IMG/VR virus record: IMGVR_UViG_2687453321_000002
Span: 1 to 64,000 of that record
Reading direction: 5' to 3' (one strand)
Length of the DNA: 64,000 bases
Source: a virus
Taxonomy: Duplodnaviria; Caudoviricetes
The translations under genes and the position numbers were made by a program. The notes under the pieces were generated by a model, which was not told the DNA's origin, did not search any database, and saw nothing but the letters and a program-made list of their open reading frames with translations. Below are positions 1,129-13,930 of the stretch, piece after piece (the first letter of the stretch is position 1; every line of letters begins with the position of its first letter).

Positions 1129-1150
1129 GGACCTCTATGTATCGAGGTCC
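1129..1150. terminator. Hairpin between convergent ImmA gene and int
   Basis: GGACCTC-tatgtatc-GAGGTCC inverted repeat. Confidence 0.45.
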
Positions 1151-1160
1151 AATCTATTTG

Positions 1161-2288
1161 CTAAATGGCTACGACCTTCCATTCTTTACCTCGGGCATCA
1201 TTATAACGATCAGTTTGACGTTGGGATTTGTGCCCTAACAAATCCTTAGTATTGATTTTTTGTTCCCGGTATAAGCGCTCCGCCAGCGAACGGATCTCGT
1301 GAAAGCTGGGAGGGGTACCTTTACTCCAAGACAACCCCGATAGCTCACGGATTTTTTTAAAACTTGTGCTGATAGTGTTGGGCTTAACCATACCTCCCCG
1401 CCTGGCCATTGCCGTATTGTGCGTGTAGTGGACAAGGTAAGGGCTGACGATATGATCCCGGCACTGAGTGATTACCTGTTCCAGGGTCATGCCAATGGCA
1501 TCACAGCGAAGGGATAGCGGGATCGCGACCTTAGCCCCGGTTTTTATCTGTTCAACGTGTAGGTGGCCGTCCCACACGTCAGAAAACTGCATTTTGCTAA
1601 TGTCGCCCTGTCGCTGGGCTGTAACGAGGCCCAGCAACATCGCATTTTTCATGTACTCGAACGGTGGTGGCGTTACGCTAAGCATGGTATTGAATTCATC
1701 TAAGATCATACGTTCACGGCCTATGCGGTTATGTGGATTTTTTGTAGCCTCGGCCGGGTTGTACCCTGGAGGAACTTCGCCGGCGTGCTGGGCTTCTTTG
1801 AAAACATCGATCAGAGTTGTTCTGACGACTTGGGCCATTCTTGAGTGGCCCTGCTTTTTGTAATCATCCAGAATGTCAGCAATATCGCGGGTATCGACAT
1901 CACATATAGGTTTAGAGGCCAATGCGTTACGCATAGCTTTAACGGGTGCTATCTTTTGCTTCACAGTGTTCTCAGAAATTTCATTTGCGGCCTTGCGCTC
2001 CTCCTGGATAACCAGATAACGATCCAGCCATGTTGAAACGCTGATGCTCCCGCCGACCGCACGGCTCAGCTTGTCCCGTACCGCCAGTGTGTTACGCAGC
2101 TGCTGTTCCGATAATCGATTATTGGCTTCAATAGCTATTGCTTTCGCTTCTTCGGCATTTGTCCCTAAACCATGAACAGTTCCTGTGAGCGGATGTTTAT
2201 ATTTCCAATATATGCGCTGTGTTCTTTTATCTGTGCTGCAATACAGCCCTGGGATGTTTAACGCAAATTTACGAGGCCTGCCCATCAT
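1161..2288 (-). CDS. int: Tyrosine integrase (lambda/phage 21/e14 type)
   Basis: Arm-binding N-terminus; catalytic motifs AQRQGD, FHEIRS, LLGHK, DRY. Confidence 0.96.
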   Translation of the reverse strand: MMGRPRKFALNIPGLYCSTDKRTQRIYWKYKHPLTGTVHGLGTNAEEAKAIAIEANNRLSEQQLRNTLAVRDKLSRAVGGSISVSTWLDRYLVIQEERKAANEISENTVKQKIAPVKAMRNALASKPICDVDTRDIADILDDYKKQGHSRMAQVVRTTLIDVFKEAQHAGEVPPGYNPAEATKNPHNRIGRERMILDEFNTMLSVTPPPFEYMKNAMLLGLVTAQRQGDISKMQFSDVWDGHLHVEQIKTGAKVAIPLSLRCDAIGMTLEQVITQCRDHIVSPYLVHYTHNTAMARRGGMVKPNTISTSFKKIRELSGLSWSKGTPPSFHEIRSLAERLYREQKINTKDLLGHKSQRQTDRYNDARGKEWKVVAI

Positions 2289-2514
2289 TTAAAATCCTCA
2301 GCAAACGGGGATCGTCGTTTTTCTTTGTCACAGGTTTGCATGAAAGCCCTATATACCTAGCTCCTTTGTCAACACGCCAATAGCGACCGGCTTTCTTTGC
2401 CGGTGGGTCAATCATGTTGTTTTTTGCATAATGAAGAATGGTTGTGTAACTCGGGCAATCGTCTTCTCCGAACTCCTCTATCGCCCAGTCCATTAATAAC
2501 TGAGTACGTGCCAT
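2269..2514 (-). CDS. xis: Excisionase
   Basis: Small basic protein overlapping int start; PPAKKAGRYWRV and DDPRLLRIL motifs as in e14/21-type Xis. Confidence 0.88.
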   Translation of the reverse strand: MARTQLLMDWAIEEFGEDDCPSYTTILHYAKNNMIDPPAKKAGRYWRVDKGARYIGLSCKPVTKKNDDPRLLRILNDGQAS

Positions 2515-2590
2515 TGGTCATACCTCGAACGATATAACCGACCAGCAGGGTAACTTGCTGGCCGGTAAATTTTTGACTTTAAAAAATCAG

Positions 2591-3094
2591 TTATCGGACT
2601 TGCAAAGAGCGAGGGCCGGTTTCAAGGTGTGCGCCTTTAATCTCAGTGCCGGCCAAGATTGCTTTTTTAAGCTCATCTTTCTTTACCTTATTAACCACTT
2701 CAGTGAATGACTCTACGAACTCATCCGGTAGTAATTCCTCGTCATCGATAACCAGCGATTGCGAACCTTTACGAGCTGTAAAGGTGTTCAGATCGGTTTT
2801 AATCGTGTCAGAACCTGATGTTAGCAAGCATTCAAGTATATATTTTTTAAGCAGCCCCGCCTGGTTCTCCCAGCTCTTCTTGCGGGCTGCGAGACGCTTA
2901 GATTCAGCATCGCAAACATTGGCTTGGCCCTCAAAACCACGTACAACGGCTATGGTCGCATCCAGCTTGTCGCCGATCATGCCTTCCAACCCTTCGAGGG
3001 TGTCCTTTATCATCTCTGGGGTAAGCTCGCCATCTTCGGCCAATGCCTGAAGCTTTTTCATTTCGATTGCTAAATCGATAGTTCTGGTGCTCAT
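2591..3094 (-). CDS. Siphovirus Gp157 family protein
   Basis: Coiled-coil N-terminus; LVIDDEELLPDEF and IKGAHLE..SLQVR C-terminal motifs. Confidence 0.85.
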   Translation of the reverse strand: MSTRTIDLAIEMKKLQALAEDGELTPEMIKDTLEGLEGMIGDKLDATIAVVRGFEGQANVCDAESKRLAARKKSWENQAGLLKKYILECLLTSGSDTIKTDLNTFTARKGSQSLVIDDEELLPDEFVESFTEVVNKVKKDELKKAILAGTEIKGAHLETGPRSLQVR

Positions 3095-5205
3095 TATTTT
3101 TTCTCCTCTTCAAATTTAGCCAGACATTCAACCTTAATTTCCTCCAGCCGGGTCAGGCGGCTTTCGAGGTATTTAACATGTTCCGTATCTGCAACAGCCT
3201 TGGCGCTCTTAATATGAGAACCAATTACACGAGTAAGGGATGAGCAAATTTTTGTCACTTCATTGCTTGTAACCGCTTCTCGCATCGTTTTTGTATTGGC
3301 CTTAAAACGTTCGTCCAATTCTTTTCTTAATCGGACGGAGTCGTCAGCCTTGGCACTGGCATTTTTTATGTTGTGCTCATATTCGTTTTCTTGTGTGTAT
3401 TCGTTATCTTCGAACATACCCAAATAAACATCAGCGCTAAATCCAAGCGATGACAGGGCTTTTGTTGTGGCATCAGTGAGGCTTTTTTTGCTTGGTTCCT
3501 CTTCAACGCTCAGACCAAACTTACTTGCATACAGGTATTTGGTGTGGCCGTATGCGATGATCTCTCCGCGTGCACCAGCATGGATGTACCAGAGCATTAT
3601 CTTCATCGTGTGATTGAGAGACGTAAGGATTTTTCCATCCCCATCACGCATGACTTTCTTACCTGTTTCACGGCCGGCGCTATCAATAATGCCTTCCATT
3701 AAAGGGATGCCGGGATCGAAGCGTTCTTCCAGCACATCAACGCCCCAACCAATACCGAATGGGCCGAATATTTCCGTGGCGCGCATATATTGGTATGTCG
3801 GCCGAATGCTCGTTACTGTGCGAATAACTTTTCCGCTATTGTCGCGGGTGTCTTTCCGTTTAGTTCGAGCTGGGTCAGTCCGCTGAACGCGTTTCCAAAT
3901 ATCGAGGTTTTTCGCTGCATCGCCTTCTTTGGAGTCCAGCTCTTTTTCGAGTACAGATGCGCGAGTTTGGAAATCGTCTGTGGTAATTTCATCGTCAGCG
4001 GTTGGTGCTTTATTTTCAGATTGCACCGCTGCTTTAGCTGTCGTTACAGATTGGGAAGGGGTAACCAGAGCTTCATCGGCTGGTTCAATCGTTTTTTCCG
4101 AATTCCCCATCAATCCGTCAATGCTAAATTTGCCATCACCCAGGCTCTGTACTTTGAGCGATTCATCCTGGCCTGATGGCTCTTTTTGCTGGCTGTCAGC
4201 GGCCTTGCTTGCCGTATTTAAGGCTGGCTTTTCTTCTGCTTCAAAAGTCATCCCACAGCGTTCAGAGAGGCATTTGTGAATGAATTTCCGCCTCATGTCC
4301 GGGTTTGTGGAAAACTCGGGATATGAAAGCCCAGCGGTGATCATTTTGAAAATGATTTCGCGATCGATGTCGAGTATGCCGACAATAACCCGCAAGGACA
4401 TACTCCATGCCCGCCATGTTTGATCTCGCTGGTTGATCAACTCCTTTGCTGCCGTTACATCTGCCGCTTTGGCGTGTAATGGATTAACGCCTTTGATTGC
4501 TAATGCGATTTCATTGTCGAGCATGTCGTAAGTGCGAGTAACGGTCACATCTTTATTAGCGGCTGCTGGTGTCCTGTCGGCATTTGCGGTTTGTACCCAG
4601 GTATCTGCAAACTTTTTGACCTCTGGCCATGTTGTCATCGCCGGTGATTTCGCCTGGATAGCTTCAATCAACTTTTCCACCGAGGTAACCAGCATTGACT
4701 TAACTTGTGGTACGCGGGGCAGAGCATCAACAATCGCGCGCAGACGTTGTTCAGCCTCGTCATCGTTGATCAGGTCATATGCGTTAGAAAGGTGCTCCAT
4801 ATCGACAGCATCAGGCTCTGCGCCGTACATCAAGATATATGCGACCCGGACGTCGATAGGCAGTTCGAAAATCGTTTTTGACGATGTGAGTCCTGCCTCA
4901 CCATTTCCATCCTGCTCTGGAAGCTCGATTGCCTCGTATTCTTTAGTTTCTTCATTCCACTGATTTTTAGTCATCCAATCAGCGTCGAATTGATCAACGG
5001 GCGGCCGTGGTAGCCCTTCGCGATCAGCGCAAATTTTGGGTTTGAAAAAGTTACTGGTGGAATTGGGGAAAGCCTCTTCCAGTAGCATTGTCGCTTTCAT
5101 TTCTGCCAGCTTGGCGTTCTTGGCCTCAACGGCAATTGCTAATGCAACGGTGCCATTTGCCGCAGCTGATTTTTTAGGGGGGAACCCACACGTAAATAAA
5201 GGCAT
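3094..5205 (-). CDS. Recombination protein: RecE-like N-terminal region fused to Rad52/Sak-like annealase domain
   Basis: N-terminus resembles exonuclease VIII N-domain (AVEAKNAK..FFKP..FDADW); C-terminus has TDP..TK, ATEIFGPFGIGWG, KKSLTDA..KALS.LGFSADVYLG typical of Rad52/22-like SSAPs. Confidence 0.65.
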   Translation of the reverse strand: MPLFTCGFPPKKSAAANGTVALAIAVEAKNAKLAEMKATMLLEEAFPNSTSNFFKPKICADREGLPRPPVDQFDADWMTKNQWNEETKEYEAIELPEQDGNGEAGLTSSKTIFELPIDVRVAYILMYGAEPDAVDMEHLSNAYDLINDDEAEQRLRAIVDALPRVPQVKSMLVTSVEKLIEAIQAKSPAMTTWPEVKKFADTWVQTANADRTPAAANKDVTVTRTYDMLDNEIALAIKGVNPLHAKAADVTAAKELINQRDQTWRAWSMSLRVIVGILDIDREIIFKMITAGLSYPEFSTNPDMRRKFIHKCLSERCGMTFEAEEKPALNTASKAADSQQKEPSGQDESLKVQSLGDGKFSIDGLMGNSEKTIEPADEALVTPSQSVTTAKAAVQSENKAPTADDEITTDDFQTRASVLEKELDSKEGDAAKNLDIWKRVQRTDPARTKRKDTRDNSGKVIRTVTSIRPTYQYMRATEIFGPFGIGWGVDVLEERFDPGIPLMEGIIDSAGRETGKKVMRDGDGKILTSLNHTMKIMLWYIHAGARGEIIAYGHTKYLYASKFGLSVEEEPSKKSLTDATTKALSSLGFSADVYLGMFEDNEYTQENEYEHNIKNASAKADDSVRLRKELDERFKANTKTMREAVTSNEVTKICSSLTRVIGSHIKSAKAVADTEHVKYLESRLTRLEEIKVECLAKFEEEKK

Positions 5206-5219
5206 TGGTCATTCCTCGC

Positions 5220-5540
5220 TTACATTTCTTTGGAAATAGATTTATGAGCTGTGATTAACTCGTTGAGAACTGCGTTGGGTAAAACATGGCGTAATGAAAT
5301 TGCGTCACAGTTCTTTACTTGCTCGACAGCCAATGAAAGCAACTCTTCGACGGTAATGAAACCGACTTCCACCAGGTCTTTAACGGTTGAAATAACCGCA
5401 TTATTAGATGTGGTGATAATTGCCTGCATTGGGTGGTCGCTTTCTGAACTGATAATGTTCACCGAGCAGGCTAAAACGCTAAAGGTTGTCTTTCTCATCT
5501 GGATCTCGCTATACTTATGGCGTCCAGTGGTGGAAGCCAT
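5220..5540 (-). CDS. Hypothetical early protein
   Basis: 106-aa ORF starting at an exact barcode copy. Confidence 0.6.
   Translation of the reverse strand: MASTTGRHKYSEIQMRKTTFSVLACSVNIISSESDHPMQAIITTSNNAVISTVKDLVEVGFITVEELLSLAVEQVKNCDAISLRHVLPNAVLNELITAHKSISKEM
5486..5515 (+). promoter_or_regulatory. Candidate sigma70 promoter for an antisense RNA
   Basis: TTGTCT(5486-5491)-18 nt-TATACT(5510-5515), opposite to the leftward operon. Confidence 0.5.
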
Positions 5541-5634
5541 TGGTCATACCTCGCAGGAGTCGGTTTGGTCGCTGACTCCGCCGTCACCGGGACGTTAAGC
5601 CGGTAGACTGGCCCGCCTTGTGCGGGCCTTTTTT
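5522..5634 (+). ncRNA. Candidate ~113-nt antisense sRNA carrying the complement of the start-associated repeat
   Basis: Upstream promoter; hairpins 5524-5543 and 5556-5579 with G.U pairs only on + strand; single-stranded TCATACCTCG; + strand intrinsic terminator. Confidence 0.5.
5610..5634 (+). terminator. Rho-independent terminator oriented rightward inside the leftward operon
   Basis: GGCCCGC-cttgt-GCGGGCC-TTTTTT; no U-tail on the minus strand. Confidence 0.8.
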
Positions 5635-5639
5635 ACTTT

Positions 5640-6077
5640 CTAATCGCAATAACTACGGTTGCAGTGAGGGCAACCAGTAACCAGTTGAGAACCTGCGCGA
5701 CGTACTGAAATACCAGTGACCGAAATTCCATTATCCATGCGTGCGTAAATATCCTTTTTGCAGCGAAAGCAAATTCCATCTAACGGGGCAAAATGAGGAG
5801 CGCGGCTTTCTTCACAGTATTTTTTTTGAGCTAAGCACGATGACTCGGAGTCGAATGCATTTTCAACGTCCAAAAACTCAATGCCTGCTGGAGTTGCGAT
5901 AGCGCCGAAAAATGGAACTTGGTCGCTACCGTCACCCTCATACGCCATTGGTTTGCAAATGTTTATGTATTCTGGGTGAAGCTTCTGTATTTCACGTAGT
6001 TGCATGGCGATGTGGCGAGCATATATATCAGCTCCACCACGAATGCTATCTAATGCATCAATTAGTCGCTGTTCCAT
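5640..6077 (-). CDS. Hypothetical protein with C-terminal Cys-rich (Zn-finger-like) domain
   Basis: CFRC...GCPHCNRSYCD; SD AAGGAG upstream. Confidence 0.65.
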   Translation of the reverse strand: MEQRLIDALDSIRGGADIYARHIAMQLREIQKLHPEYINICKPMAYEGDGSDQVPFFGAIATPAGIEFLDVENAFDSESSCLAQKKYCEESRAPHFAPLDGICFRCKKDIYARMDNGISVTGISVRRAGSQLVTGCPHCNRSYCD

Positions 6078-6199
6078 ATTCTTCTCCTTTTGTTATTAAA
6101 ATGCGCCCTGCGAGTTGACGCCCCGGATGGGAAACGCTGGACGCATATCAATAACTTCAAAAAGCCCCGCCAGCGACGGCGGGGAAGACTACACAGCAA

Positions 6200-6493
6200 T
6201 TACTGGATGGATAACACGCTGATATTTAATGAGCGAATGCCGGCTTTGGGGGGGATTAGATCGATAGTTTCGCCAAGAGGTATACGCTCAAAACGACGGA
6301 TAACAGCTTCAATCGCACACATTTCGCAATGCTCGTAACCAATATCTTTGCCATTGTGGGTGATAGCGAAAGGATGCTGGTTTTGATGCTCATTTTCGGG
6401 CAGGGCGATGTAACCGGCGGTTTCGTCATTTGAAAACACTTTAGCTACGTTTTTGCTGACCAGCGCTAATTTGAAAATTATTTCCTTGCTCAT
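6200..6493 (-). CDS. Hypothetical early protein
   Basis: 97-aa ORF preceded by barcode variant CGGAGTACGACCAATG. Confidence 0.6.
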   Translation of the reverse strand: MSKEIIFKLALVSKNVAKVFSNDETAGYIALPENEHQNQHPFAITHNGKDIGYEHCEMCAIEAVIRRFERIPLGETIDLIPPKAGIRSLNISVLSIQ

Positions 6494-6639
6494 TGGTCGT
6501 ACTCCGATTTTAGGTAATGGTGATCCGTAGCTAAATTAATTAGCTAGAGAAAAATTAAATTAGGTGCCGGTTACGTTTCCGGCGTCGTATTACCTACCTC
6601 TACGGGCGGAATATACGACCGTTCCCTGGTGTTGCATTT

Positions 6640-6837
6640 TCAATGAGTGCCGGCAGGCTCGAAATAAGGTGGAACGCTGCGAGCCTCGAACGCTGACTTG
6701 ATTGCCCGAAGATTGCCGGTAGGTTCGAACCGATATACTTTGCAGTGAATATCGTAATGAGCCATCCATGCAGCGCCGGTGCGTTTATTACGGTATCTGG
6801 CTTGCTTGCCGCTATGTGGAATAGTTGTATTGATCAT
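6640..6837 (-). CDS. Hypothetical early protein
   Basis: 65-aa ORF starting at an exact barcode copy. Confidence 0.65.
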   Translation of the reverse strand: MINTTIPHSGKQARYRNKRTGAAWMAHYDIHCKVYRFEPTGNLRAIKSAFEARSVPPYFEPAGTH

Positions 6838-6880
6838 TGGTCATACCTCGGAGATTCTCCGCGCTTTATCGCGGTGGGTG

Positions 6881-7075
6881 TTATAACTTCGGCAGTTCGC
6901 GGAATTTACCGTAACTGGACTGATCAACAAAAATGCTGATTTCATCCCCTTGATCATCGATAACACGCACGCACTTTCCATCAGAGCAAGTGCTTTCGAT
7001 GTCATATTGCTTACCAGCGGTAAGGTAGCCGACAGCCTCTTCGCTTGGGGTGATACATAGGACTGTTGCTTTCAT
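6881..7075 (-). CDS. Hypothetical protein, first full gene of pL operon
   Basis: MKATVLC.. start coupled (ATGA) to an 11-codon leader ORF 7072-7107. Confidence 0.55.
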   Translation of the reverse strand: MKATVLCITPSEEAVGYLTAGKQYDIESTCSDGKCVRVIDDQGDEISIFVDQSSYGKFRELPKL

Positions 7076-7178
7076 CGTGTAACCCTCTGCCGTGTAGTGA
7101 AATCCATTGGTCATACCTCGCCGTCTTTCCGGCTGTCAGAACTTTGTACCTGAGCACTGCTGTGCTGTTGATGTGTTG

Positions 7179-7218
7179 ATTAAATATCATATTTATATAA
7201 GTGTCAATATTATATTTA
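7179..7218 (-). promoter_or_regulatory. pL promoter with operators
   Basis: TTGACA-17-TTTAAT on minus strand; palindromes TAAATA-N3-TATTTA at 7181-7195 and variant 7204-7218. Confidence 0.7.
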
Positions 7219-7284
7219 TAGTCTTTCTGGAGATGAAAAAAAACCGCCACAGGGGCGGTGAGTAACTTTCTGATTTTTAGAGAG

Positions 7285-7857
7285 TTATCCTCTCATTTTT
7301 TTTAGTTCCTCGAACATGCTGTCGTAAAAATCAGCCTGCTTTTTTACATTCTCTAGAAATTCTTGCTTGGCTTTGCTTGTAAGCTTATGAAAGTAAAATA
7401 AAAGTTCTTTATCTTCATCATTTAGCTTTGTTGGCGAAACAGAACTATTACCGGCATCTAAGTGATTGAAAGGTAATCCATAATCTTGCTCAATCCGCCT
7501 GGCAGTTTTATCAGTGAAGGCGGCTTTCCCATTAACTAGATCTTCAAAAAATCCAGCTTCTTCTTCGGGGAATCCAGGCTCGCTAAACCAATCAGCAAGG
7601 CGTTTGGCTCGATGCGCGTTCAACTCATGGAGTTCGGGGCCACCTTCCAATATCCAATCCACCGATACGCCAGTAGCCGCGGCAATCTTCTTAGCGGAGG
7701 CTTTTCCAACCTCACCCCGATTGAACCAGCCATTAACGGCCTGAGCACTGACTCCTGCCATACGCGCAAGATCAGCTTTTTTCAGGTCTTTCATATGCAT
7801 AAGAAGAGCCATGCGCTCTTCGAATGCTAACACTGGATTCGATATTTTTTCTTTCAT
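7285..7857 (-). CDS. cI: CI-like repressor (HTH, no S24 peptidase; DicA-like C-terminus)
   Basis: KKADLARMAGVSAQAVNGWF HTH, divergent from cro; no Ala-Gly/Ser/Lys peptidase domain. Confidence 0.85.
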   Translation of the reverse strand: MKEKISNPVLAFEERMALLMHMKDLKKADLARMAGVSAQAVNGWFNRGEVGKASAKKIAAATGVSVDWILEGGPELHELNAHRAKRLADWFSEPGFPEEEAGFFEDLVNGKAAFTDKTARRIEQDYGLPFNHLDAGNSSVSPTKLNDEDKELLFYFHKLTSKAKQEFLENVKKQADFYDSMFEELKKMRG

Positions 7858-7867
7858 TTCATGATTA

Positions 7868-7933
7868 TAAACATTAGGTTTAATGCATCAACTACATATT
7901 TTGTTGACATTCTTTATAAATAAATTATTTAAT
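7868..7933 (+). promoter_or_regulatory. pR/OR region
   Basis: TTGACA(7904-7909)-18-TTTAAT; operators TAAACA-tta-GGTTTA (7868-7882) and TAAATA-aat-TATTTA (7917-7931) matching OL. Confidence 0.7.
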
Positions 7934-7950
7934 GTCCGTGTCGTTAACCT

Positions 7951-8208
7951 ATGGAGTCCAAAATGACAGTGCTAGACGAAGTAATTAAAAACTTTAGGAG
8001 TGCTTCTGGTTTAGCTAAGGCGCTAGAAGTAACACCTATGACCGTAAGCCAATGGAGGCATCGAGATAAGGGGAAAGTGCCAGAACGACACTTGATGAAA
8101 ATTTACGAACTCACGGGGATTACCCCCCATGAACTTCGGCCGGATATTCATCCTAACCCTACGTCCGGATTGCCACTGAATATCAACAATAGCATCGCGG
8201 ACGATTAA
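7951..8208 (+). CDS. cro: Cro-like regulator (YdaS/Cro family)
   Basis: LAKALEVTPMTVSQW HTH and TPHELRPDIHPNP motif. Confidence 0.85.
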   Translation: MESKMTVLDEVIKNFRSASGLAKALEVTPMTVSQWRHRDKGKVPERHLMKIYELTGITPHELRPDIHPNPTSGLPLNINNSIADD

Positions 8209-8218
8209 GGACTGACTT

Positions 8219-8650
8219 ATGGAAATCAATTATGAAGCGATCTGCATTGAGCTACGCCGCTGGGCCAATGCGACAAAACGGGAAACGGTGGCTGCGGAGA
8301 TTACTCAGCACTATTTCGAGTTAGGTGGCGGTGATCTGCCTTTGTATCCGATCGAGGCTCCTGGGGCGACACATAACAACATGCAAAATATTTTCCGCTG
8401 GTTGGATAGTGGCAGCAGGAAAGCGAAAGTAAAAATCGAAGCCTTAAAGCCTGCAATTTTGAAGGCGTTGGAGCAGCGGCGTTACGGAACAATCCAGTAT
8501 CAGGTGGCAAGGGCACAAAAGGAATTTGCTGAGGCCGTCAGTGCCGCACTGCTGGAGTTGCCGGAAGCGGACGAGGAAATCAACGACGCAATAGAAGCGT
8601 TGCATGTGTTACGAAGCAGACCGCATAGCGGCATTTACTGCCGGGGATAA
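8219..8650 (+). CDS. CII-like / YdaT family protein
   Basis: Position after cro; ELRRWA..ETVAAEIT..QNIFRWLD resembles YdaT. Confidence 0.65.
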   Translation: MEINYEAICIELRRWANATKRETVAAEITQHYFELGGGDLPLYPIEAPGATHNNMQNIFRWLDSGSRKAKVKIEALKPAILKALEQRRYGTIQYQVARAQKEFAEAVSAALLELPEADEEINDAIEALHVLRSRPHSGIYCRG

Positions 8651-8663
8651 CGAGGTATGACCA

Positions 8664-8894
8664 ATGGCTAATTTTACGAAAGAACAGGTCGAGGTGCAGA
8701 TCCGCGATCAATTGGTGCGTGAAGGTATTTCAATCGATGTGGCTCGTTCGGCGGCAATGCGTGGTGCTAATCATTACGCGAGCCGGCCAAATGCAACTAT
8801 CGCAAGCAGTATAGCGATCGCCAAAACCTATGCGAAACCATTAAAGCGTGTGAAAGGGAAGCCAAATTGCAACGCCAATTCTCGCAAAAGGTAA
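8664..8894 (+). CDS. Hypothetical protein
   Basis: 76-aa ORF starting at an exact barcode copy. Confidence 0.6.
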   Translation: MANFTKEQVEVQIRDQLVREGISIDVARSAAMRGANHYASRPNATIASSIAIAKTYAKPLKRVKGKPNCNANSRKR

Positions 8895-9331
8895 CGCTGT
8901 CAGCGTTACAAAGTTAATACAGTCGAGGCGTATATGGCATCAAGTTGGATAAAAGTCGAAGTAATTACTCCAGATAAGCCGGAGGTATACCAGCTTGCTG
9001 AATTGTTGGAATTAGACCCTGATGCGGTACTCGGTAAGCTGATCCGCCTGTGGTCTTGGGCAGATCAACAAACAATTGACGGTAACGCAGATTGTAACGC
9101 TGTGAGCGTTACTAAAAGTGCGATAGATCGGATCACTTTTGTGAGAGGTTTCGCCGAAGCAATGCTGAAAGTTGGATGGTTGGCTCTGGATGGCGAAAAG
9201 TTGGTTTTTCCAAACTTCGAGCGGCATAACGGGAATTCCACTAAAAAACGGGCACTTACAAATAGGCGCGTTGCAAATTTACGCGATTCGCAACGCAGTG
9301 AAGCACCAAACAGTAACGCTCACAGCGTTAC
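8891..9331. repeat. Palindromic iterons GTAACGCT-N3-AGCGTTAC (probable origin)
   Basis: Copies at 8891-8909, 9094-9112, 9313-9331 plus half-site 9082-9088, in and before the replication gene. Confidence 0.7.
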
Positions 9332-9869
9332 AAAAAAGGCACAAAAGGGGTTACCAGATGAAGATGAAGAGGAAGAAGAAGATATAAAAGATCCCCCCTT
9401 ACCCCCCAAGGGGAACGGGGAGGGGCAATTTGATTTTAATTCGATTGAACTACCCGAATGGCTATCGCCTGAAATATGGCGTCAGTGGGGAGAGTTTTGC
9501 ATCGAACTGGGGAAACCGGTGAAAACAAAACGTGCGGCAATGGCGAACATTAAGCGGCTGGAGGAGTTTCGGCAGCAGGGGCATTCACCCGACTCGGTGA
9601 TTCTGCACTGTATCGCGAACGACTGGAAAACGTTATCACCACCGCTTGTTTCGCATCCGGTATCAAATTTTATTGATTTCGATGGGGCGTTTAACCGGCT
9701 AATTACTTCTCGCAAGAAGCCTCAGAACAGGGCGGAAGAAATTGCCAAGGAAAAATACTCGAAAGCTGGATTGCGGATGGCGAAAGAATTCGAGTGCCGT
9801 AACGCATGGCGGGGCTATTTAAGCCTGGCATACAAAGAAACCGGCGAGCAGCCGTACGTGGGAGGTTAG
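8934..9869 (+). CDS. Replication initiator (O-like replisome organiser)
   Basis: MASSWIKVEVITPDKPEV N-terminus; DEDEEEEE.DPPLPP linker; internal iterons. Confidence 0.8.
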   Translation: MASSWIKVEVITPDKPEVYQLAELLELDPDAVLGKLIRLWSWADQQTIDGNADCNAVSVTKSAIDRITFVRGFAEAMLKVGWLALDGEKLVFPNFERHNGNSTKKRALTNRRVANLRDSQRSEAPNSNAHSVTKKAQKGLPDEDEEEEEDIKDPPLPPKGNGEGQFDFNSIELPEWLSPEIWRQWGEFCIELGKPVKTKRAAMANIKRLEEFRQQGHSPDSVILHCIANDWKTLSPPLVSHPVSNFIDFDGAFNRLITSRKKPQNRAEEIAKEKYSKAGLRMAKEFECRNAWRGYLSLAYKETGEQPYVGG

Positions 9870-10268
9870 ATGGAAACAAATACTATTAATCGGCTAGTGA
9901 CGTGTGATTACTGCGGGAAGCCTGCCGCGCTGGTGAGGGGCTTTGTTATTTACCCGCACCGCAAGGATTTGGCGAATGGGTATTACTGGTCATGTGATCC
10001 ATGTGGAGCTTATGTCGGCTGCCATCGAGACAGTAACGCAATGCCACTTGGCCGATTGGCGAATGCCCAGCTACGCGCCGCCAAGCGGCTTGCACACGCT
10101 GCCTTCGATCCCTTGTGGATAGAGTTCGGGATGAAGCGGGCGGACGCGTACCAATGGCTGGCCGAACAACTCGGCATTCCTGGGGCTGAGTGCCACATCG
10201 GCATGTTCGATGTTGATATGTGCCGTCGTGTGCAACGCGTGGCGACGGAATACAAGAATTCCCTGTAA
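9870..10268 (+). CDS. DUF3268 zinc-finger protein
   Basis: CDYC..CDPCGAYVGCH..GRLAN..CHIGMFD. Confidence 0.8.
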   Translation: METNTINRLVTCDYCGKPAALVRGFVIYPHRKDLANGYYWSCDPCGAYVGCHRDSNAMPLGRLANAQLRAAKRLAHAAFDPLWIEFGMKRADAYQWLAEQLGIPGAECHIGMFDVDMCRRVQRVATEYKNSL

Positions 10269-10282
10269 GCGAGGTATGACCA

Positions 10283-10708
10283 ATGGCAGTAGAAATTAAC
10301 AAATTAATCAACGAGCGTCGTATTGGTGTCGATGATGGGTGTGATTACGGTGCGGTAATCATCGATAACCTGAATGCTGCGGCACGAGCAAGGACGAGAG
10401 CGTGCTATCAACCGCCGGTAAGGGCTCCGTTTGTCAGTCGGCCTCAAGGCGATGACAGCCCTGTGGTGAAGATTGGCAACCGCAATGTATACGGGCGCAA
10501 AGTCATCACCGGGATTTATCAGCTCCATCTTTCTGGCCGCACTCCGGTTCAAATCGCCCGACTGCTGAAGATGCCGTTACACCGGGTAGAGCATCTACTC
10601 CGACGGGGAACCAGCGTCCGCCGCGAAATTTTCCGGAATGTGTCAACCCAGCCGTTGCCGACAGAGGCTGAAATTATGCGCTGCCTGGCGGCAGAGTCGA
10701 AGGCGTGA
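10283..10708 (+). CDS. Hypothetical DNA-binding protein
   Basis: Starts at an exact barcode copy; HTH-like GRTPVQIARLLKMP. Confidence 0.6.
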   Translation: MAVEINKLINERRIGVDDGCDYGAVIIDNLNAAARARTRACYQPPVRAPFVSRPQGDDSPVVKIGNRNVYGRKVITGIYQLHLSGRTPVQIARLLKMPLHRVEHLLRRGTSVRREIFRNVSTQPLPTEAEIMRCLAAESKA

Positions 10709-10715
10709 GGTGAGC

Positions 10716-12338
10716 ATGAGCGAATTAATTTTAACTGAGGAGTTTTTTGCTCCAGCGGCCACCGATCTCGTTGATGGATTATTGGGGCAGTACAAGCATC
10801 TGCGCGCTGATATTGAGCAGATGGCGGGCGTGATAAGCACGCATCATGCATCGGTGCATCATTTCCTGGAGGGGAATCAGAACCAAGACCGACGCCATTA
10901 TATCGGGAGTGTCGACCAACTTTTTAAACTCGAAGGGGCCATTGCGAGCCTGAACTCTACGTTTTGGCAAAAAGCTCTAAATATGACCGACGTGTACGAG
11001 TACATGCCGAATAATCGCCGTACTGAGTGGAATGATCAGATCCGGGAAATGAAAACCCCAGATTTCGAAGAGGAAACAGTACGCCCCACAATTATGGAGT
11101 TGCTCAACTCGCGGCAGAAGTTTTTCTCTGAGCGCGTGGATGGCATTTTCCGTGCTCTTTCCGGCGATCATGTTACTAACAGACCGGAGGGTTTCGGTAA
11201 ACGCATGATCCTCGCGCGCGTGTTCAACGAGTACGGATGGACCAATCACGATGTGAGTGGTTTTATCCAGGATCTCCGGCAGGTCATTGCTAAATTTATG
11301 GGCCGTGATGAACCCCGTTGGCGTGTAACCGATGACGCGCTCCAGGAGGCCCGTATCCGTCACGGTGAATGGCTGACGATGGACGGTGGCGCATTGCGTG
11401 TCCGGGCCTATCTGAAAGGAACTGCGCACCTCGAAGTTCACCCCGAAATGGCCTGGCGGCTAAATTGCATTCTGGCGCACCTGTATCCGATGGCAATTCC
11501 GCCTCAGTTCCGCCAGAAACCGAAAAAGAAACTCAAAGATTTCATTTTGATGGACAAGCCGCTACCGTTCGCCGTTCTGGCGGTGCTTTCGGGTTTGAAA
11601 GCTGAGTATCACACCCCGATACGACGCAACAAATGGGATGATCCTACACCACCACTGACAACCAATCCGTTTAATCGCAGATTCGATTGGCGTGATGAAG
11701 ATAAGGCAATCCGCGGACAAGCAGGCAAGGTGTTGGAAATGATCGGCGGCATACTTATCAAAGCCGGCCCTCATAAAAATATCAACATCTGGGAGTTCGA
11801 TTACGACCCATCCCGAGTGCTGGGTGAGATCGTTGCATCTGGCTGTATTCCAGACTATCAGTCGCACCAGTTCTACCCAACCCCGGAATCACTGGCCGAA
11901 AGGGTTGTATGTGAGGCCGAAATACAACCTGGCGAAAAATGCCTGGAGCCGAGTGCTGGCACTGGAAACATTGCGATATTGATGCCGGCAGATCAAACCT
12001 GTTGCGTGGAAATATCGACCCTACATTGTCGGGTGCTGGAAGCCAAAGGATTAACCGTTGAACAGGCGGATTTTATCAAATGGGCGCAGAGCACCAACAA
12101 GCGCTTCGACAAGGTGGTTATGAATCCTCCCTTCAGCGAGGGGCGTGCCAAAGCACATGTGGAAAGTGCTGCCTCATTGGTAAATCGAGGAGGGCGTTTG
12201 GTGGCGATATTGCCCCTGGGTATGAAAGGCAAAGAAATATTACCCGGTTGGAAAGTGAGCTGGTCAGAAGAGATCAGCAACGAATTCGCGGGAACAAGCA
12301 TTTCAGTAGTTATTTTGACAGCAGAAAGAGAGGTATGA
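10716..12338 (+). CDS. DUF4942-domain DNA methyltransferase
   Basis: QFYPTP, LEPSAGTG (SAM motif I), VMNPPF (motif IV, amino-MTase). Confidence 0.85.
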   Translation: MSELILTEEFFAPAATDLVDGLLGQYKHLRADIEQMAGVISTHHASVHHFLEGNQNQDRRHYIGSVDQLFKLEGAIASLNSTFWQKALNMTDVYEYMPNNRRTEWNDQIREMKTPDFEEETVRPTIMELLNSRQKFFSERVDGIFRALSGDHVTNRPEGFGKRMILARVFNEYGWTNHDVSGFIQDLRQVIAKFMGRDEPRWRVTDDALQEARIRHGEWLTMDGGALRVRAYLKGTAHLEVHPEMAWRLNCILAHLYPMAIPPQFRQKPKKKLKDFILMDKPLPFAVLAVLSGLKAEYHTPIRRNKWDDPTPPLTTNPFNRRFDWRDEDKAIRGQAGKVLEMIGGILIKAGPHKNINIWEFDYDPSRVLGEIVASGCIPDYQSHQFYPTPESLAERVVCEAEIQPGEKCLEPSAGTGNIAILMPADQTCCVEISTLHCRVLEAKGLTVEQADFIKWAQSTNKRFDKVVMNPPFSEGRAKAHVESAASLVNRGGRLVAILPLGMKGKEILPGWKVSWSEEISNEFAGTSISVVILTAEREV

Positions 12339-12342
12339 CCAA

Positions 12343-13191
12343 ATGGCAAACTCATTTAACAAAATGATTGACGAGAAAGTAATTAAGCGTGGAAAAACAA
12401 GCCTGCTTATACGTCTTGATGATATTCATATCAAAGAGGGTTTTAATCGTCGTGTTGACAATGAGCGTTATCGTGAAGCTAATGAGAAGCTTTACCAATA
12501 TATGCTCATGGGTGGGAAAATCCCCAACCTTGAGGTTGTTCCTCGCGATGAAGGTGGTGTGTGGGTTGTTGAGGGGCACCGCAGGACATTAACTTGTCAT
12601 CGTCTTCGTGATGAAGCAGGTAAGCCTGTTGAATGGATAAAAATAGAGCCGTTCGAAGGTAACGATGTAGACCGTATCGCACGCATTAGAACCAGTAATG
12701 AGCAATTGCCGCTTACTGATTACGAAGAGGCACTATTGGTCAGGGATTTGCAAAATCTCAATTTGCACGCTGACAAAATCGCCGAGGTCTTACATATTCC
12801 CCGCTATAAAGTCGACAATGCCCTAGTGCTGCTCTCCGCCAATTATGACGTACACCAATTGGTAGAAGAAGGTGAAGTTGATATCCCACTGGCGGTACAG
12901 CGTATAAAAAAACATGGCGAAAAGGCTGGGCAAGTTTTGCAGAACGATGCCGAAAAAGCCAAGCAAAAGGGGAAACAAAAAGCCACCAAGTCAACAGCAA
13001 TCCCACAATTCAGCGCCACCCGCGCCCGCCGGCTCTGTGAGCTGCTCTACGATGCTGCCCCGATGGTTCGTGAAGAGGGGGATGTTCTGCTGCTCCTTCC
13101 AGGGACAAGAGAAGAAATTAACACCATCCTCAACGAGTACCGGCAGCAGCATCCGCAAGTATTCGATGAAGAAGAGCGCGGAGGTGCGTGA
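12343..13191 (+). CDS. ParB-like N-terminal domain DNA-binding protein
   Basis: GFNRR..VVEGHRR ParB/Srx motif followed by HTH. Confidence 0.7.
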   Translation: MANSFNKMIDEKVIKRGKTSLLIRLDDIHIKEGFNRRVDNERYREANEKLYQYMLMGGKIPNLEVVPRDEGGVWVVEGHRRTLTCHRLRDEAGKPVEWIKIEPFEGNDVDRIARIRTSNEQLPLTDYEEALLVRDLQNLNLHADKIAEVLHIPRYKVDNALVLLSANYDVHQLVEEGEVDIPLAVQRIKKHGEKAGQVLQNDAEKAKQKGKQKATKSTAIPQFSATRARRLCELLYDAAPMVREEGDVLLLLPGTREEINTILNEYRQQHPQVFDEEERGGA

Positions 13192-13757
13192 TGCCAGCAA
13201 ATGAACGGAATCTGTATCCCAACATAAAGCGAGTAGTTTGGAGTGATTGGGCCGAAGGGAAGGTTCGGCAGCAGCGCTGGCACCCGATGCGAGTGGCAAT
13301 GCTGTTTCGCCTCGGCCCTGTCATGCCAACGCCCACTATCGCAAAAATGTTCGGAGTTTCACCGCGGGTCGTTAGGAGTAAGGCTGAAAGCCTTGGGATC
13401 AGGCTGTACCGATGCTTTCGGAACTACGCCGATTGGGAAATAAAGTTCATGAAAGATAATCGGCAAAAGCTAACGCAGAATGAAATCGCACTGCATTTGG
13501 GCAGGACAGAAGAAGCTGTTTGCACAGCAATGCGCAAGCGCGGGTTTGGCCCAGGAAAGCCGCGCGGCGAACGCCACCCTCATCACAAACACAGCGACTA
13601 TGACGTTGAGCTATGCCGTAAGTTGTCAGACGAAGGTTTGAACGCGACTGAAATCGCCGAAAAGATGGATATTGATCTCAGCACCGTTTTTCGGTGGATT
13701 AACTTCCTCAGCCGCACCAACATAGAACTTGAAGACTACGGGAGAGCGAGAGCATGA
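13188..13757 (+). CDS. Multi-HTH DNA-binding protein
   Basis: Repeated HTH-like segments (IAKMFGVS, IALHLGRT, IAEKMDID). Confidence 0.6.
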   Translation: MMPANERNLYPNIKRVVWSDWAEGKVRQQRWHPMRVAMLFRLGPVMPTPTIAKMFGVSPRVVRSKAESLGIRLYRCFRNYADWEIKFMKDNRQKLTQNEIALHLGRTEEAVCTAMRKRGFGPGKPRGERHPHHKHSDYDVELCRKLSDEGLNATEIAEKMDIDLSTVFRWINFLSRTNIELEDYGRARA

Positions 13758-13930
13758 CTATAGCCAAAGCGCCGGGGTACGCCATGCCTCCACTTAACTT
13801 TTCACCTCGCCTGGTGCGGGGCGTCAATTTGACGACAGAGCGCGATATGTGGCAGAGCGAAAAGCATTATCGCTTTCGTTCGGGCAAATACTACGGCCGG
13901 GTCCGGTATGTGGAGTTGAATCATGGATAA
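13754..13930 (+). CDS. Small protein (58 aa), homolog of 49919-50065
   Basis: NFSPRLVRGVNLTTERDMWQSEKHYRFRSGKYYGRVRY nearly identical to the prophage 2 ORF; below the ORF-track cutoff. Confidence 0.75.
   Translation: MTIAKAPGYAMPPLNFSPRLVRGVNLTTERDMWQSEKHYRFRSGKYYGRVRYVELNHG

What the first reader, a model, noticed from the sequence alone, without database searches (positions are those of the whole stretch)
2512..12345. A 16-bp translation-start 'barcode' shared by nine early genes of prophage 1
Seen: CGAGGTATGACCAATG (SD GAGGT + spacer + ATG) occurs exactly 6 times and as 3 near-variants. Every copy ends on a start codon, and copies occur in both the leftward and rightward early operons: xis, the RecE-N/annealase gene, a pL leader peptide, the gene before the replication initiator, the ParB-like gene and several unknowns. 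I found no copy in late genes or in prophage 2. Identity extends through the normally free SD-ATG spacer, so ribosome binding alone does not explain it. Inference: a shared address for a translational regulator (RNA or protein), and/or a microhomology hub for swapping gene cassettes, comparable to the start-associated sequences of cluster K mycobacteriophages.
Basis: partly seen in the sequence, partly recalled or inferred. Interest (0 to 1): 0.88.

Follow-up and report, generated by a model that had tools for sequence, protein, structure and literature searches.

The report
Shared start-site barcode of phage early genes
A family of temperate phages related to Pectobacterium phage ZF40 puts the same 16-letter ribosome-binding-site-to-start-codon sequence in front of the first gene of each early gene block, and each phage lineage has its own version of it, which suggests that something besides the ribosome reads it.

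Summary
CGAGGTATGACCAATG occurs 6 times exactly and 3 times as variants (0 exact expected by chance). Every copy ends on a start codon, all lie at 2.5-12.4 kb, and the rest of the 90-kb record has none.

It is a lineage-wide feature. The same 16-mer precedes the same gene families in prophages of Yersinia, Serratia, Erwinia, Izhakiella, Rahnella and Mixta. It is kept where the proteins are only 43-50% identical. Neighbouring plain genes never carry it (0 of 214 hits).

New here: prophage 1 is a ZF40-like myovirus. ZF40 and other relatives carry versions that differ at motif positions 6-8 (TAT/AAT, CAA, AAA, CAT) between invariant CGAGG and GACCAATG. All copies in one genome share the version.

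The motif leads the first cistron of most translationally coupled early blocks, and two copies start short leader ORFs.

The recombination-hub idea has one clean cassette example but no excess of mosaic joints. Extended 16S pairing, a phage antisense copy and the cI repressor are not supported.

Best reading (about 45%): a start-associated translational operator read by an unidentified lineage-specific factor. I found no description in print.

The parts
2512..2527 (-). Exact motif copy; its ATG (2514-2512) starts xis (2269-2514), followed by the overlapping integrase gene (1161-2288)
   Evidence: phrog_629 excisionase, E 2e-23
5203..5218 (-). Variant copy CGAGGAATGACCAATG (T6A) in front of the 703-aa exonuclease gene (3094-5205). 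The next gene, Gp157/Gam-like (2591-3094), overlaps the exonuclease stop by 1 nt
   Evidence: Most exonuclease homologues in TAT-version loci carry this same variant (35 of 42; within 2 mismatches of the window motif in 38 of 44 hits)
5538..5553 (-). Exact copy starting the ORF 5220-5540. Its first 14 codons correspond to a separate 12-14-codon leader ORF in several relatives
5554..5640 (-). Conserved structured leader directly upstream of the 5538 copy: three hairpins. The first hairpin reads as an intrinsic terminator on the + strand (5610-5628)
   Evidence: 87-99% identity in relatives; paired changes seen by eye in all three stems; z = -3.05. No Rfam match
6491..6506 (-). Degenerate copy CGGAGTACGACCAATG in front of the 97-aa ORF 6200-6493
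6835..6850 (-). Exact copy in front of the 65-aa ORF 6640-6837 (phrog_3722)
7072..7120 (-). Exact copy (7105-7120) plus an 11-codon leader ORF (7107-7072). The leader's stop overlaps the ATG of the 64-aa gene 6881-7075. This is the first translated unit downstream of the putative pL/oL region
8651..8666 (+). Exact copy directly after the stop of the YdaT/CII-like gene (8219-8650). It starts the 76-aa ORF 8664-8894, which is followed by the replication gene 8934-9869 and the DUF3268 gene 9870-10268
10270..10285 (+). Exact copy 1 nt after the stop of the DUF3268 gene. It starts the 141-aa ORF 10283-10708, which is followed by the DUF4942/methyltransferase gene
12329..12345 (+). Variant AGAGGTATGACCAAATG (one extra A). 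The TGA inside it (12336-12338) is the stop of the methyltransferase gene. It starts the ParB-like gene 12343-13191
   Evidence: phrog_1033, E 1e-58

Best explanation
The 16-mer is a start-associated translational operator. It is a fixed Shine-Dalgarno (GAGG) + 8-nt spacer + AUG module that serves as the ribosome entry site for the first cistron of most translationally coupled early blocks. In the window these blocks are the pL leader + p64, p65, p97, the leader/p106, exonuclease + Gp157, xis + int, p76 + replication genes, p141 + methylase, and the ParB-like gene onward. Downstream cistrons of a block are joined by overlaps or near-zero gaps and so depend on the motif-led cistron.

Shown: the module is under purifying selection at every position, copy by copy. 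It also exists in genome-wide versions that differ between phage lineages at motif positions 6-8.

Inferred: besides the ribosome, a trans-acting reader recognises the module on the mRNA and sets the translation of all early blocks together. It has not been identified. Its specificity differs between lineages. Such control could act as shut-off or activation at a life-cycle transition, in the manner of T4 RegA or RegB.

Use of the repeats as occasional recombination joints is a by-product.
For: Chance and position: 6 exact copies against 0 expected, and all 9 copies end on start codons in both early operons. None occurs elsewhere in the 90-kb record.

Gene-family specificity and conservation (tblastn of window proteins against the motif loci):
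- xis: 10 of 10 hits with the motif (8 exact), at protein identity 49-100%.
- p106: 27 of 29 exact, at 43-94%.
- p76: 36 of 44 exact plus 5 with 1-2 mismatches.
- Exonuclease: 38 of 44 within 2 mismatches.
- Nine plain neighbouring genes: 0 of 214.
Positions -13 to -1 have mean pairwise identity 0.84-0.97 for motif genes. Third codon positions of the same genes score 0.35-0.51 in four of the five families (0.82 for p106), and positions -13 to -1 of plain genes score 0.39-0.75.

The T6A variant stays with the exonuclease gene in 35 of 42 TAT-version loci. Copies are therefore inherited and kept one by one, not homogenised.

Versions: ZF40 has CGAGGCAAGACCAATG or near-variants at 6 early gene starts (a further one-off copy lies inside gp08) and none at 20-48 kb. 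AAA and CAT versions exist in other viral contigs. In 74 dereplicated multi-copy loci, 74.8% of 606 within-locus pairs share the triplet (94.6% if AAT is counted as TAT), 0 of 2000 shuffles reach this (maximum 35.6%), and no locus mixes major versions. Orthologous genes carry the version of their genome: exonuclease AAA 20 of 25, CAA 10 of 12, AAT 35 of 42; xis family CAT 3 of 3, AAA 3 of 3, TAT 26 of 26.

Block logic: in 29 of the 36 representative junctions that have an upstream ORF, that ORF stops within 5 nt before the motif or at the TGA inside it. The window ORF map and the ZF40 annotation show motif-led cistrons followed by overlapped or abutting cistrons.

Ribosome-only reading weakened: motif-16S duplex energy is -12.5 kcal/mol, and 25% of all 16,384 spacers do as well.
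Against: - No reader was identified. The small motif-led proteins p76 and p106 gave no informative family or Atlas match.
- No protein family separates cleanly by version, because the version groups are deeply diverged in all early genes. No between-group pair reaches 80% identity except integrases, with 6 pairs. The versions could therefore be old lineage markers.
- No antisense copy of the motif exists in the record beyond chance.
- There are no RNA data.
- TAT and AAT coexist in one genome, and one genome (G511) has a CAT and a TAT copy 2.6 kb apart. Position 6 is therefore not strictly uniform.
- All loci were fetched through a match to the motif, so conservation figures include the copy that caused the locus to be fetched.
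- Cluster K SAS, the closest analogue, still has no demonstrated function (PMC12699233, passages read).
Confidence: 0.45

Rival explanations
1. Recombination linker: the 16-mer is kept as a short conserved boundary sequence at which homologous recombination swaps early modules between phages (the Susskind-Botstein / Clark idea). Its role in translation is only that of an ordinary start site.
For: - The copies bracket functional modules: recombination, integration, immunity and replication.
- There is one clean indel. In L118 and L040 a 62-aa ORF plus a second copy, 202 bp in all, is inserted exactly between the window's stop-motif and p76.
- 85 of 421 internal BLAST endpoints lie within 8 nt of the nine copies, which make up 1.8% of the sequence.
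- In L118, identity jumps from 73.6% to 95.5% at the 8651 copy.
- The same upstream flank is joined to different downstream genes, and the reverse: 43 upstream clusters, 37 downstream clusters, 58 combinations.
- The phage encodes an exonuclease/Gp157 recombination module.
Against: - Per junction there is no excess over plain gene starts. Recent (97% or more) endpoints occur at 12 of 277 motif junctions against 16 of 538 control starts. Gene-level identity jumps occur at 8 of 29 motif junctions against 6 of 26 plain ones. A cruder pair count gives 17% against 26% one-sided pairs.
- A linker only needs to match its own junction in other phages. The model does not explain why all junction types share one sequence, or why all copies of a genome share one version.
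- It gives no first-order selection that would keep 13 non-ATG bases while proteins fall to 43-50% identity.
Confidence: 0.17
2. Plain strong start site: the module is simply a good ribosome entry and restart site read by the ribosome alone. Its uniformity reflects common descent and hitch-hiking, with no extra reader.
For: - It contains a canonical GAGG at normal spacing from the AUG.
- It usually lies directly after the upstream stop, which suits re-initiation.
- No reader was found.
- The version groups are deep lineages.
Against: - The spacer and the first C are kept more strictly than first and second codon positions in four of five families.
- Plain genes in the same operons use varied SD sequences.
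- Distant exonuclease homologues in 2 other Enterobacterales genomes have ordinary starts without the motif.
- Under ribosome-only constraint, positions 6-8 should drift independently in each copy. Instead they are uniform within genomes and differ between lineages.
- 16S pairing of the spacer is unremarkable.
Confidence: 0.15
3. DNA-level site: an asymmetric binding site for a DNA-binding protein that blocks or modulates transcription through the early operons, like cluster A stoperators, or that is the target of a site-specific recombinase.
For: - The site is asymmetric and always co-oriented with transcription in both operons.
- Lineage-specific versions are what stoperators show with their repressors (PMC6550527, passages read).
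Against: - The fixed register includes the SD and the AUG themselves.
- The sites are confined to early gene starts rather than spread over the genome.
- The putative cI operators at oL and oR are AT-rich repeats unlike the motif.
- Gene order is conserved, unlike integron-type cassette arrays.
Confidence: 0.1
4. RNA processing site: the module is cleaved by a sequence-specific endoribonuclease, of phage or host origin, that inactivates or matures early mRNAs at their start sites, as T4 RegB does at GGAG.
For: - The location in start regions of early genes only.
- Strict conservation of the bases flanking the SD.
- The precedent of RegB (PMC3014915, passages read).
Against: - No RNA 5'-end data could be obtained.
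- No RegB-like or other RNase family was found among the 20 early ORFs scanned with Pfam.
Confidence: 0.08

Closest known systems
Start-associated sequences (SAS) of cluster K mycobacteriophages (Pope et al. 2011, PMC3203893; passages read)
   Same: Both are short asymmetric repeats in many copies. Both are confined to the non-structural part of the genome, sit in the ribosome-binding position just before start codons (mostly ATG) and contain an SD core plus conserved bases that cannot pair with 16S rRNA. Both have one orientation, precede genes of different families, and sometimes contain the upstream gene's stop. The function of both is unknown.
   Different: The sequence is unrelated (GGGATAGGAGCCC against CGAGGTATGACCAATG), and the hosts belong to another phylum. 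Here the start codon is part of the repeat at a fixed distance, whereas SAS lie 3-7 bp upstream. No upstream inverted-repeat extension (ESAS) is shared by the copies. Here the core repeat itself exists in genome-wide lineage versions, and two copies start short leader ORFs.
Stoperators of cluster A mycobacteriophages (PMC6550527, passages read; PMC9283540, search listing only)
   Same: Both are asymmetric sites dispersed in many copies and oriented with transcription. Their consensus differs between phage lineages.
   Different: Stoperators are DNA sites of the immunity repressor. They are spread over the whole genome and have no fixed register to start codons. Here the putative cI operators are unlike the motif, and cI varies within one version.
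T4 RegA translational operators and RegB cleavage sites (review PMC3014915, passages read)
   Same: In T4, one phage protein acts on the translation initiation regions of many early mRNAs. The sites overlap or abut the AUG (RegA) or the SD (RegB) and shut down early protein synthesis.
   Different: RegA sites are A+U-rich and poorly conserved, and RegB needs only GGAG. No RegA or RegB homologue was seen among the 20 early ORFs scanned. T4 is a virulent phage.
Short conserved boundary ('linker') sequences of lambdoid phage modules (Susskind & Botstein 1978; Clark et al. 2001; known to me only through the citing text of PMC3029335)
   Same: Both are short identical sequences at module boundaries that could serve homologous recombination. 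One cassette indel flanked by two copies was found.
   Different: [quoted passage not shown] Here a single sequence is used at all boundaries, and it shows no excess of joints over plain gene starts.

Membership tests
Cluster K start-associated sequences (SAS) | Short asymmetric repeat in about 10-20 copies per genome, restricted to non-structural genes | tested here: met
   The window has 9 copies (6 exact), all at 2.5-12.4 kb, and none in the late genes or in prophage 2. ZF40 has 6 copies at early gene starts plus one inside gp08, and none at 20-48 kb.
Cluster K start-associated sequences (SAS) | Located in the RBS position a few bases before start codons, in one orientation relative to the gene, before genes of different families | tested here: met
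   All 9 copies end on an ATG. Of 175 exact copies in relatives, 158 precede an ORF of 40 or more codons. About 37 downstream start clusters were found.
Cluster K start-associated sequences (SAS) | Consensus 5'-GGGATAGGAGCCC (up to 2 deviations), as used by Pope 2011 and PMC12699233 | tested here: not met
   The sequence here is CGAGGTATGACCAATG. This is an analogue, not a member of the same sequence family.
Cluster K start-associated sequences (SAS) | About half of the sites carry an extended 17-bp imperfect inverted repeat upstream (ESAS) | tested here: not met
   There is no shared information upstream of position -15 in 58 representative junctions. Only the 5538 copy has its own structured leader.
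Cluster A stoperators | Sites match the operator of the immunity repressor and follow its specificity | tested here: not met
   The repeats at oL and oR (7183-7220, 7915-7933) are AT-rich and unlike the motif. cI homologues in loci with the same motif version are 30-100% identical.
Cluster A stoperators | Asymmetric sites oriented with transcription and distributed across the whole genome | tested here: inconclusive
   The orientation rule is met. The distribution is early-region only.
T4 RegA/RegB-type control of early start regions | Presence of a RegA or RegB homologue | tested here: not met
   No such Pfam family appeared among the 20 early-region ORFs scanned. The rest of the prophage was not scanned for it.
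T4 RegA/RegB-type control of early start regions | A trans-acting protein binds or cuts the start regions of many early mRNAs | not testable with these tools
   This needs RNA-binding or 5'-end data. No usable RNA run was found.
Module boundary (linker) sequences for homologous exchange | Short conserved sequence at boundaries of exchangeable modules | tested here: met
   The copies bracket the integration, recombination, immunity and replication blocks. A cassette indel is flanked by two copies.
Module boundary (linker) sequences for homologous exchange | Mosaic joints fall preferentially in the sequence | tested here: inconclusive
   There is enrichment per base (85 of 421 endpoints in 1.8% of the sequence). 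There is no enrichment per junction (12 of 277 vs 16 of 538; 8 of 29 vs 6 of 26). The loci are redundant and statistical power is low.

The most novel reading that the evidence does not exclude
ZF40-like temperate phages of Enterobacterales use a sequence-specific 'address code' on their early mRNAs. A dedicated reader, still unidentified and probably phage-encoded (a protein or a small RNA), recognises CGAGG-NNN-GACCAAUG at the entry cistron of every early block and switches early translation as a set. Reader and address have diverged together into at least four versions. This would be a translational counterpart of the repressor/stoperator systems of cluster A mycobacteriophages. It would also offer the first experimentally tractable model for start-associated sequences, whose function has been open since 2011.
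Probability: 0.35. Interest if true: 0.85.

Novelty: new variant of a known kind. Interest (0 to 1): 0.7.

Why it matters
Start-associated sequences have been known in cluster K mycobacteriophages since 2011. A 2025 survey of 188 genomes still says their role needs experimental verification (PMC12699233).

This finding shows an independent, unrelated example in phages of Gram-negative bacteria. One of them, Pectobacterium phage ZF40, is cultured and already used as a laboratory model (search listing).

The genome-wide versions of the spacer make the question directly testable. Swapping three bases between versions, with and without the cognate phage, distinguishes a specific reader from plain ribosome binding.

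If a reader exists, it would be a new kind of global post-transcriptional switch in temperate phages. It could also serve as a compact, orthogonal translational control part. If no reader exists, the strict conservation of a spacer sequence would itself need an explanation.

For annotation, the motif gives exact start codons for many small early genes. It also reveals short leader ORFs that gene callers miss.

Tried and rejected
Extended anti-SD pairing. The 16S 3' end was taken from a Yersinia aleksiciae genome. The motif-16S duplex is -12.5 kcal/mol, but 25% of all 16,384 possible spacers reach this. Rejected as the reason for spacer conservation.

Internal ATG or ATGA in the spacer as an alternative start or a built-in stop. 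The other versions (CAA, AAA) lack it. Rejected as a general feature. The TGA is used as the upstream stop in 7 of the 36 representative junctions that have an upstream ORF.

A phage-encoded antisense RNA. Words of 9, 8 and 7 nt of the motif on either strand outside the nine copies number 2, 21 and 108, against about 5.5, 24.8 and 110 expected from my own arithmetic. Nothing found. A host RNA is not excluded.

The cI repressor as reader. The putative operators are unlike the motif, and cI varies within a version. Rejected.

A promoter reading of the spacer was considered by eye only. The scan of 5400-8300 listed no promoter-like site at a motif copy.

Rfam found no family over 1-16000, apart from a sub-threshold Trp_leader match elsewhere.

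- Pfam and PHROGs on the early ORFs gave nothing informative for the small motif-led proteins.
- The protein Atlas for p76 and p106 gave best scores of 0.84 and 0.78, all to unnamed clusters. These are leads only.
- I clustered 6,266 ORFs from 125 loci to look for a family that follows the version. None is separable, because the version groups differ in everything.
- p76 + rep311 go with the versions that have T at position 8. The gp13 + gp14 type goes with those that have A there. This is a clade marker, not proof of a reader.

Mosaic tests:
- The ungapped flank comparison is confounded by indels at plain junctions.
- HSP endpoints and gene-level identity jumps are reported in full above.
- In one search, pairs were counted as distinct identity pairs, and only those with one gene at 85% or more were used.

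One search gave between-version exonuclease identities of up to 62-63%. Those were best-HSP values without a coverage filter. With 60% or more coverage the maximum is 46%, so I do not use the higher figures.

The search for related loci with the exonuclease found only 5 close relatives, all already known. A search of 401 genomes with the exonuclease found 6 with a match. Two are distant homologues (48-51% identity over the C-terminal half) with ordinary start sites.

RNA evidence. No RNA holder is listed. Four raw-read RNA runs with the same species label laid 0 reads, so this was no test.

Literature. The motif and its versions as text gave 0 relevant papers. The ZF40 genome paper has 0 occurrences of Shine, ribosome, motif, intergenic or RBS. 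One broader keyword search gave nothing relevant. Supplements were not opened. Subscription journals are not in the library, and the Clark 2001 HK620 paper was not seen.

The hosts of the AAA and CAT versions were not established. An AAA locus is 86% identical over 77% of its length to two records named Stenotrophomonas phages.

Full report
**1. The observation**

The 16-mer CGAGGTATGACCAATG occurs six times exactly in the window. None is expected in 100 dinucleotide-preserving shuffles. With up to three mismatches there are nine copies, against a shuffle mean of 0.42 and a maximum of 3.

The copies lie on the minus strand between 2512 and 7120 and on the plus strand between 8651 and 12345. 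Each is therefore co-oriented with the leftward or rightward early operon of a prophage. That prophage's integrase, excisionase, exonuclease, Gp157-like gene, cI-, cro- and YdaT/CII-like genes, replication gene and ParB-like gene were confirmed with Pfam and PHROGs.

Every copy ends on an ATG that opens an ORF. Sequence outside the 16 nt is not shared between copies.

The window is the first 64 kb of a 90,419-bp provirus record. No further copy at up to one mismatch exists in that record, and partial words of the motif are at chance level elsewhere. The late genes of prophage 1 (terminase, portal, protease, sheath, tail fibre) and a second prophage starting with an integrase at 47771-48898 are present and carry no copy.

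**2. Two copies start leader ORFs**

The copy at 7105-7120 lies just downstream of the putative pL/oL region. Its ATG opens an 11-codon ORF whose stop overlaps, as ATGA, the ATG of a 64-aa gene.

The copy at 5538-5553 sits inside a block of about 160 nt that is 87-99% identical in relatives whose flanking genes are about 65-70% identical at the DNA level. Upstream of this copy are three hairpins. Paired changes in relatives were seen by eye in all three stems, and the fold has a z-score of -3.05. The first hairpin is an intrinsic terminator for the opposite strand.

In Erwinia-, Rahnella- and Izhakiella-type loci the ORF from this copy is only 12-14 codons long and is followed by an SD and the real gene. 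In the window and in the Yersinia loci the leader is fused in frame to that gene.

**3. A lineage-wide feature**

The exact 16-mer was found in 58 stretches of viral contigs, many with 3-6 copies.

Among one genome per species, multi-copy clusters occur only in Yersinia aleksiciae, Y. frederiksenii, Serratia fonticola, Serratia sp. PL17, Erwinia sp. and Izhakiella. Single copies occur in related loci of Rahnella, Mixta and Y. thracica. Single hits in unrelated phyla are at the level a 16-mer gives by chance in that much sequence, by my own arithmetic.

In 47 multi-copy loci plus the record, 158 of 175 exact copies precede an ORF of at least 40 codons. The rest are leader ORFs or lie at locus ends.

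**4. Stable and gene-family specific**

I searched the window's proteins against these loci and read the sequence before each homologue's start.
- xis: motif in 10 of 10 hits (8 exact), at protein identity 49-100%.
- p106: 27 of 29 exact, at 43-94%.
- p76: 36 of 44 exact, plus 5 with 1-2 mismatches.
- Exonuclease: 38 of 44 within two mismatches.
- Nine neighbouring genes (int, Gp157, p145, cI, cro, YdaT, rep311, DUF3268, methylase): 0 of 214.

Mean pairwise identity at positions -13 to -1 is 0.84-0.97 for motif genes. For the third codon positions of the same genes it is 0.35-0.51 in four of the five families (0.82 for p106, whose start lies in the conserved leader). For the same positions of plain genes it is 0.39-0.75.

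The exonuclease gene carries the T6A variant in 35 of 42 loci of the window's group. Each copy is therefore inherited with its gene and kept by selection. The copies are not homogenised with one another.

Caveat: all loci were fetched through a match to the motif. The copy that caused a locus to be fetched is included in these counts, although most loci have several further copies.

**5. The motif leads translational blocks**

Of 58 representative junctions, 36 have an upstream ORF. In 16 of these the ORF ends 0-1 nt before the motif, in 6 it ends 2-5 nt before, and in 7 it ends at the TGA inside the motif. The motif is then the whole intergenic spacer.

In the window, several plain genes are overlapped or abutted second or third cistrons of a motif-led gene. 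These are int after xis, Gp157 after the exonuclease, DUF3268 after rep311 (itself 39 nt after p76), and the GTG-started gene after the ParB-like gene. Other plain genes (cI, cro, YdaT, p145) have start sites of their own. The ZF40 annotation shows the same coupling pattern.

**6. Versions of the motif**

The closest cultured phage by the exonuclease (36.6% identity over 99% of the query) is Pectobacterium phage ZF40. It has the same early and late gene order.

ZF40 does not have the window's 16-mer. It has CGAGGCAAGACCAATG or near-variants at the starts of xis (gp03), gp05, the exonuclease (gp07), gp13 (directly after the CII-like gene), gp16 (the p141 family) and gp18. A further one-off copy lies inside gp08. 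There is none in its late half.

Scans of viral contigs found the following.
- The CAA version occurs in 31 stretches.
- With two positions left open, an AAA version occurs in many loci with 3-6 copies, and a CAT version in three loci.
- CGAGG and GACCAATG are constant.

Within a locus the copies agree.
- Among 74 dereplicated multi-copy loci, 74.8% of 606 within-locus pairs share the triplet (94.6% if AAT is counted with TAT).
- 0 of 2000 shuffles reach this; the maximum is 35.6%.
- No locus mixes major versions.

Orthologous genes carry the version of their genome.
- Exonuclease: AAA 20 of 25, CAA 10 of 12, AAT 35 of 42.
- p141 family: TAT 36 plus AAT 3 of 42, AAA 15 of 21, CAA 3 of 3.
- One xis family: CAT 3 of 3, AAA 3 of 3, TAT 26 of 26.

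In a sample of 401 genomes of the GTDB family, 15 have a match. One of them (G511) has a CAT and a TAT copy 2.6 kb apart, so position 6 is not strictly uniform.

**7. What the versions mean**

If only GAGG, the spacing and the AUG mattered, positions 6-8 would drift independently in each copy. Instead they are held to a lineage-specific value at all junctions.

Homogenisation between copies is not seen, since the T6A variant is stable at one gene. It is also mechanistically unlikely with 5- and 8-nt arms; that second point is inference.

The simplest account is a common reader whose preference differs between lineages. This is the logic shown for cluster A stoperators and their repressors (PMC6550527).

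The operator-like repeats at oL and oR are AT-rich and unlike the motif, and cI homologues are 30-100% identical among loci sharing one version.

It is not extended pairing with 16S rRNA, and it is not an antisense copy in the record.

The version groups are deeply diverged in all early genes. No between-group pair reaches 80% identity except integrases, so no protein family stands out. The versions could partly be old lineage markers, and a host factor is not excluded.

**8. The recombination reading**

There is real support.
- A 202-bp unit (a 62-aa zinc-ribbon-like ORF plus a second copy of the motif) is present in L118 and L040 exactly between the window's stop-motif and p76.
- Identity to L118 jumps from 73.6% to 95.5% at the 8651 copy.
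- 85 of 421 internal BLAST endpoints lie within 8 nt of the nine copies.

When counted per junction, however, motif joints are not more often mosaic joints than plain gene starts.
- Recent (97% or more) endpoints: 12 of 277 motif junctions against 16 of 538 control starts.
- Gene-level identity jumps: 8 of 29 against 6 of 26.
- A cruder pair count points the same way.

These tests have low power and the loci are redundant. I read the repeats as occasional joints, not as the reason for their conservation.

**9. Comparison with what is known**

The nearest described thing is the start-associated sequence of cluster K mycobacteriophages. It is a 13-bp asymmetric repeat in 11-19 copies, found in non-structural genes only, 3-7 bp before start codons. 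It contains an SD core plus conserved bases that cannot pair with rRNA, and its function is unknown (PMC3203893). It was still untested in 2025 (PMC12699233).

The present motif behaves like a SAS but is not a member of that sequence family. It lacks the extended inverted repeats, includes the start codon itself, and comes in genome-wide versions.

T4 RegA and RegB show that one phage protein can act on many early start regions (PMC3014915). No homologue was seen among the 20 early ORFs scanned.

Text searches for the motif and its versions found nothing relevant. The ZF40 genome paper does not mention such a feature. Supplements, and journals outside the library, were not seen.

**10. Verdict**

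- The best-supported reading, at about 45%, is a start-associated translational operator with a lineage-specific reader that is still unknown.
- The linker, plain-start-site, DNA-site and RNA-processing readings remain possible.
- The feature is a new variant of a known but unexplained kind. It occurs in a phage group with a cultured model, and it can be tested with three-base swaps.

Noticed in passing
window 5479-5640 (minus strand): A conserved block of about 160 nt lies around the 5538 motif copy. It holds three hairpins with paired changes in relatives, then the motif, then a conserved hairpin that pairs the start codon (AUGGC...GCCAU). It is 87-99% identical in relatives whose flanking genes are about 65-70% identical. 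It has no Rfam match. It looks like an undescribed cis-regulatory leader with a 12-14-codon leader ORF.
   Followed up: partly
window 6165-6184 (minus) and 5610-5628 (plus): There are terminator-like hairpins inside the leftward early operon. One faces the operon's own direction, between the 97-aa and 145-aa ORFs, which suggests the operon needs antitermination. The other faces the opposite direction.
   Followed up: no
window 7183-7220 and 7915-7933: AT-rich repeats (AATATCATATTTATA type) occur on both sides of the cI gene. They are likely the oL and oR operators. A terminator-like hairpin follows cI at 7243-7259.
   Followed up: partly
L118:4700-4917 and L040:7694-7910; also L048:7963-8180 and L012:6024-6240: A 62-aa cysteine-rich ORF (MANYCEDCGTKKY...) is present in some relatives as a cassette between two motif copies. 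It is absent from the window.
   Followed up: partly
window 1-47000 versus ZF40 (L185, L217): Prophage 1 has the gene order of Pectobacterium phage ZF40: int, xis, Gam/Gp157, exonuclease, cI, cro, CII-like, replication, then terminase, portal, protease, head, sheath, baseplate and fibres. It is followed in tandem by a second prophage whose integrase has the same length (375 aa).
   Followed up: partly
window 1-1122 (plus): Next to the integrase lies a 373-aa ORF with an HTH_3 domain and an IrrE/ImmA-type M78 peptidase domain. It runs to the start of the record, and I did not work out which element it belongs to.
   Followed up: no
window 14469-14569 (plus): There is a sub-threshold Rfam match to the Trp operon leader (27 bits against a gathering score of 41, E 0.068). 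It is probably chance.
   Followed up: no
G511:C1:1979654-1982266: One genome of the GTDB-family sample has a CAT-version copy and a TAT-version copy 2.6 kb apart on opposite strands. This is the only mixed case seen at position 6 besides TAT/AAT.
   Followed up: no
L227 (AAA version) versus OM816834/OM816835: A locus with six AAA-version copies is 86% identical over 77% of its length to two records named Stenotrophomonas phages BUCT708 and BUCT709. A second cultured phage group may therefore carry the feature.
   Followed up: no
window start codons after the motif: The first codons after the motif resemble each other in several unrelated ORFs (MANFT, MDFTT, MASTT, MINTT, MPLFT). The information content there is low across 58 junctions, so this may be chance or a remnant of duplication.
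   Followed up: partly
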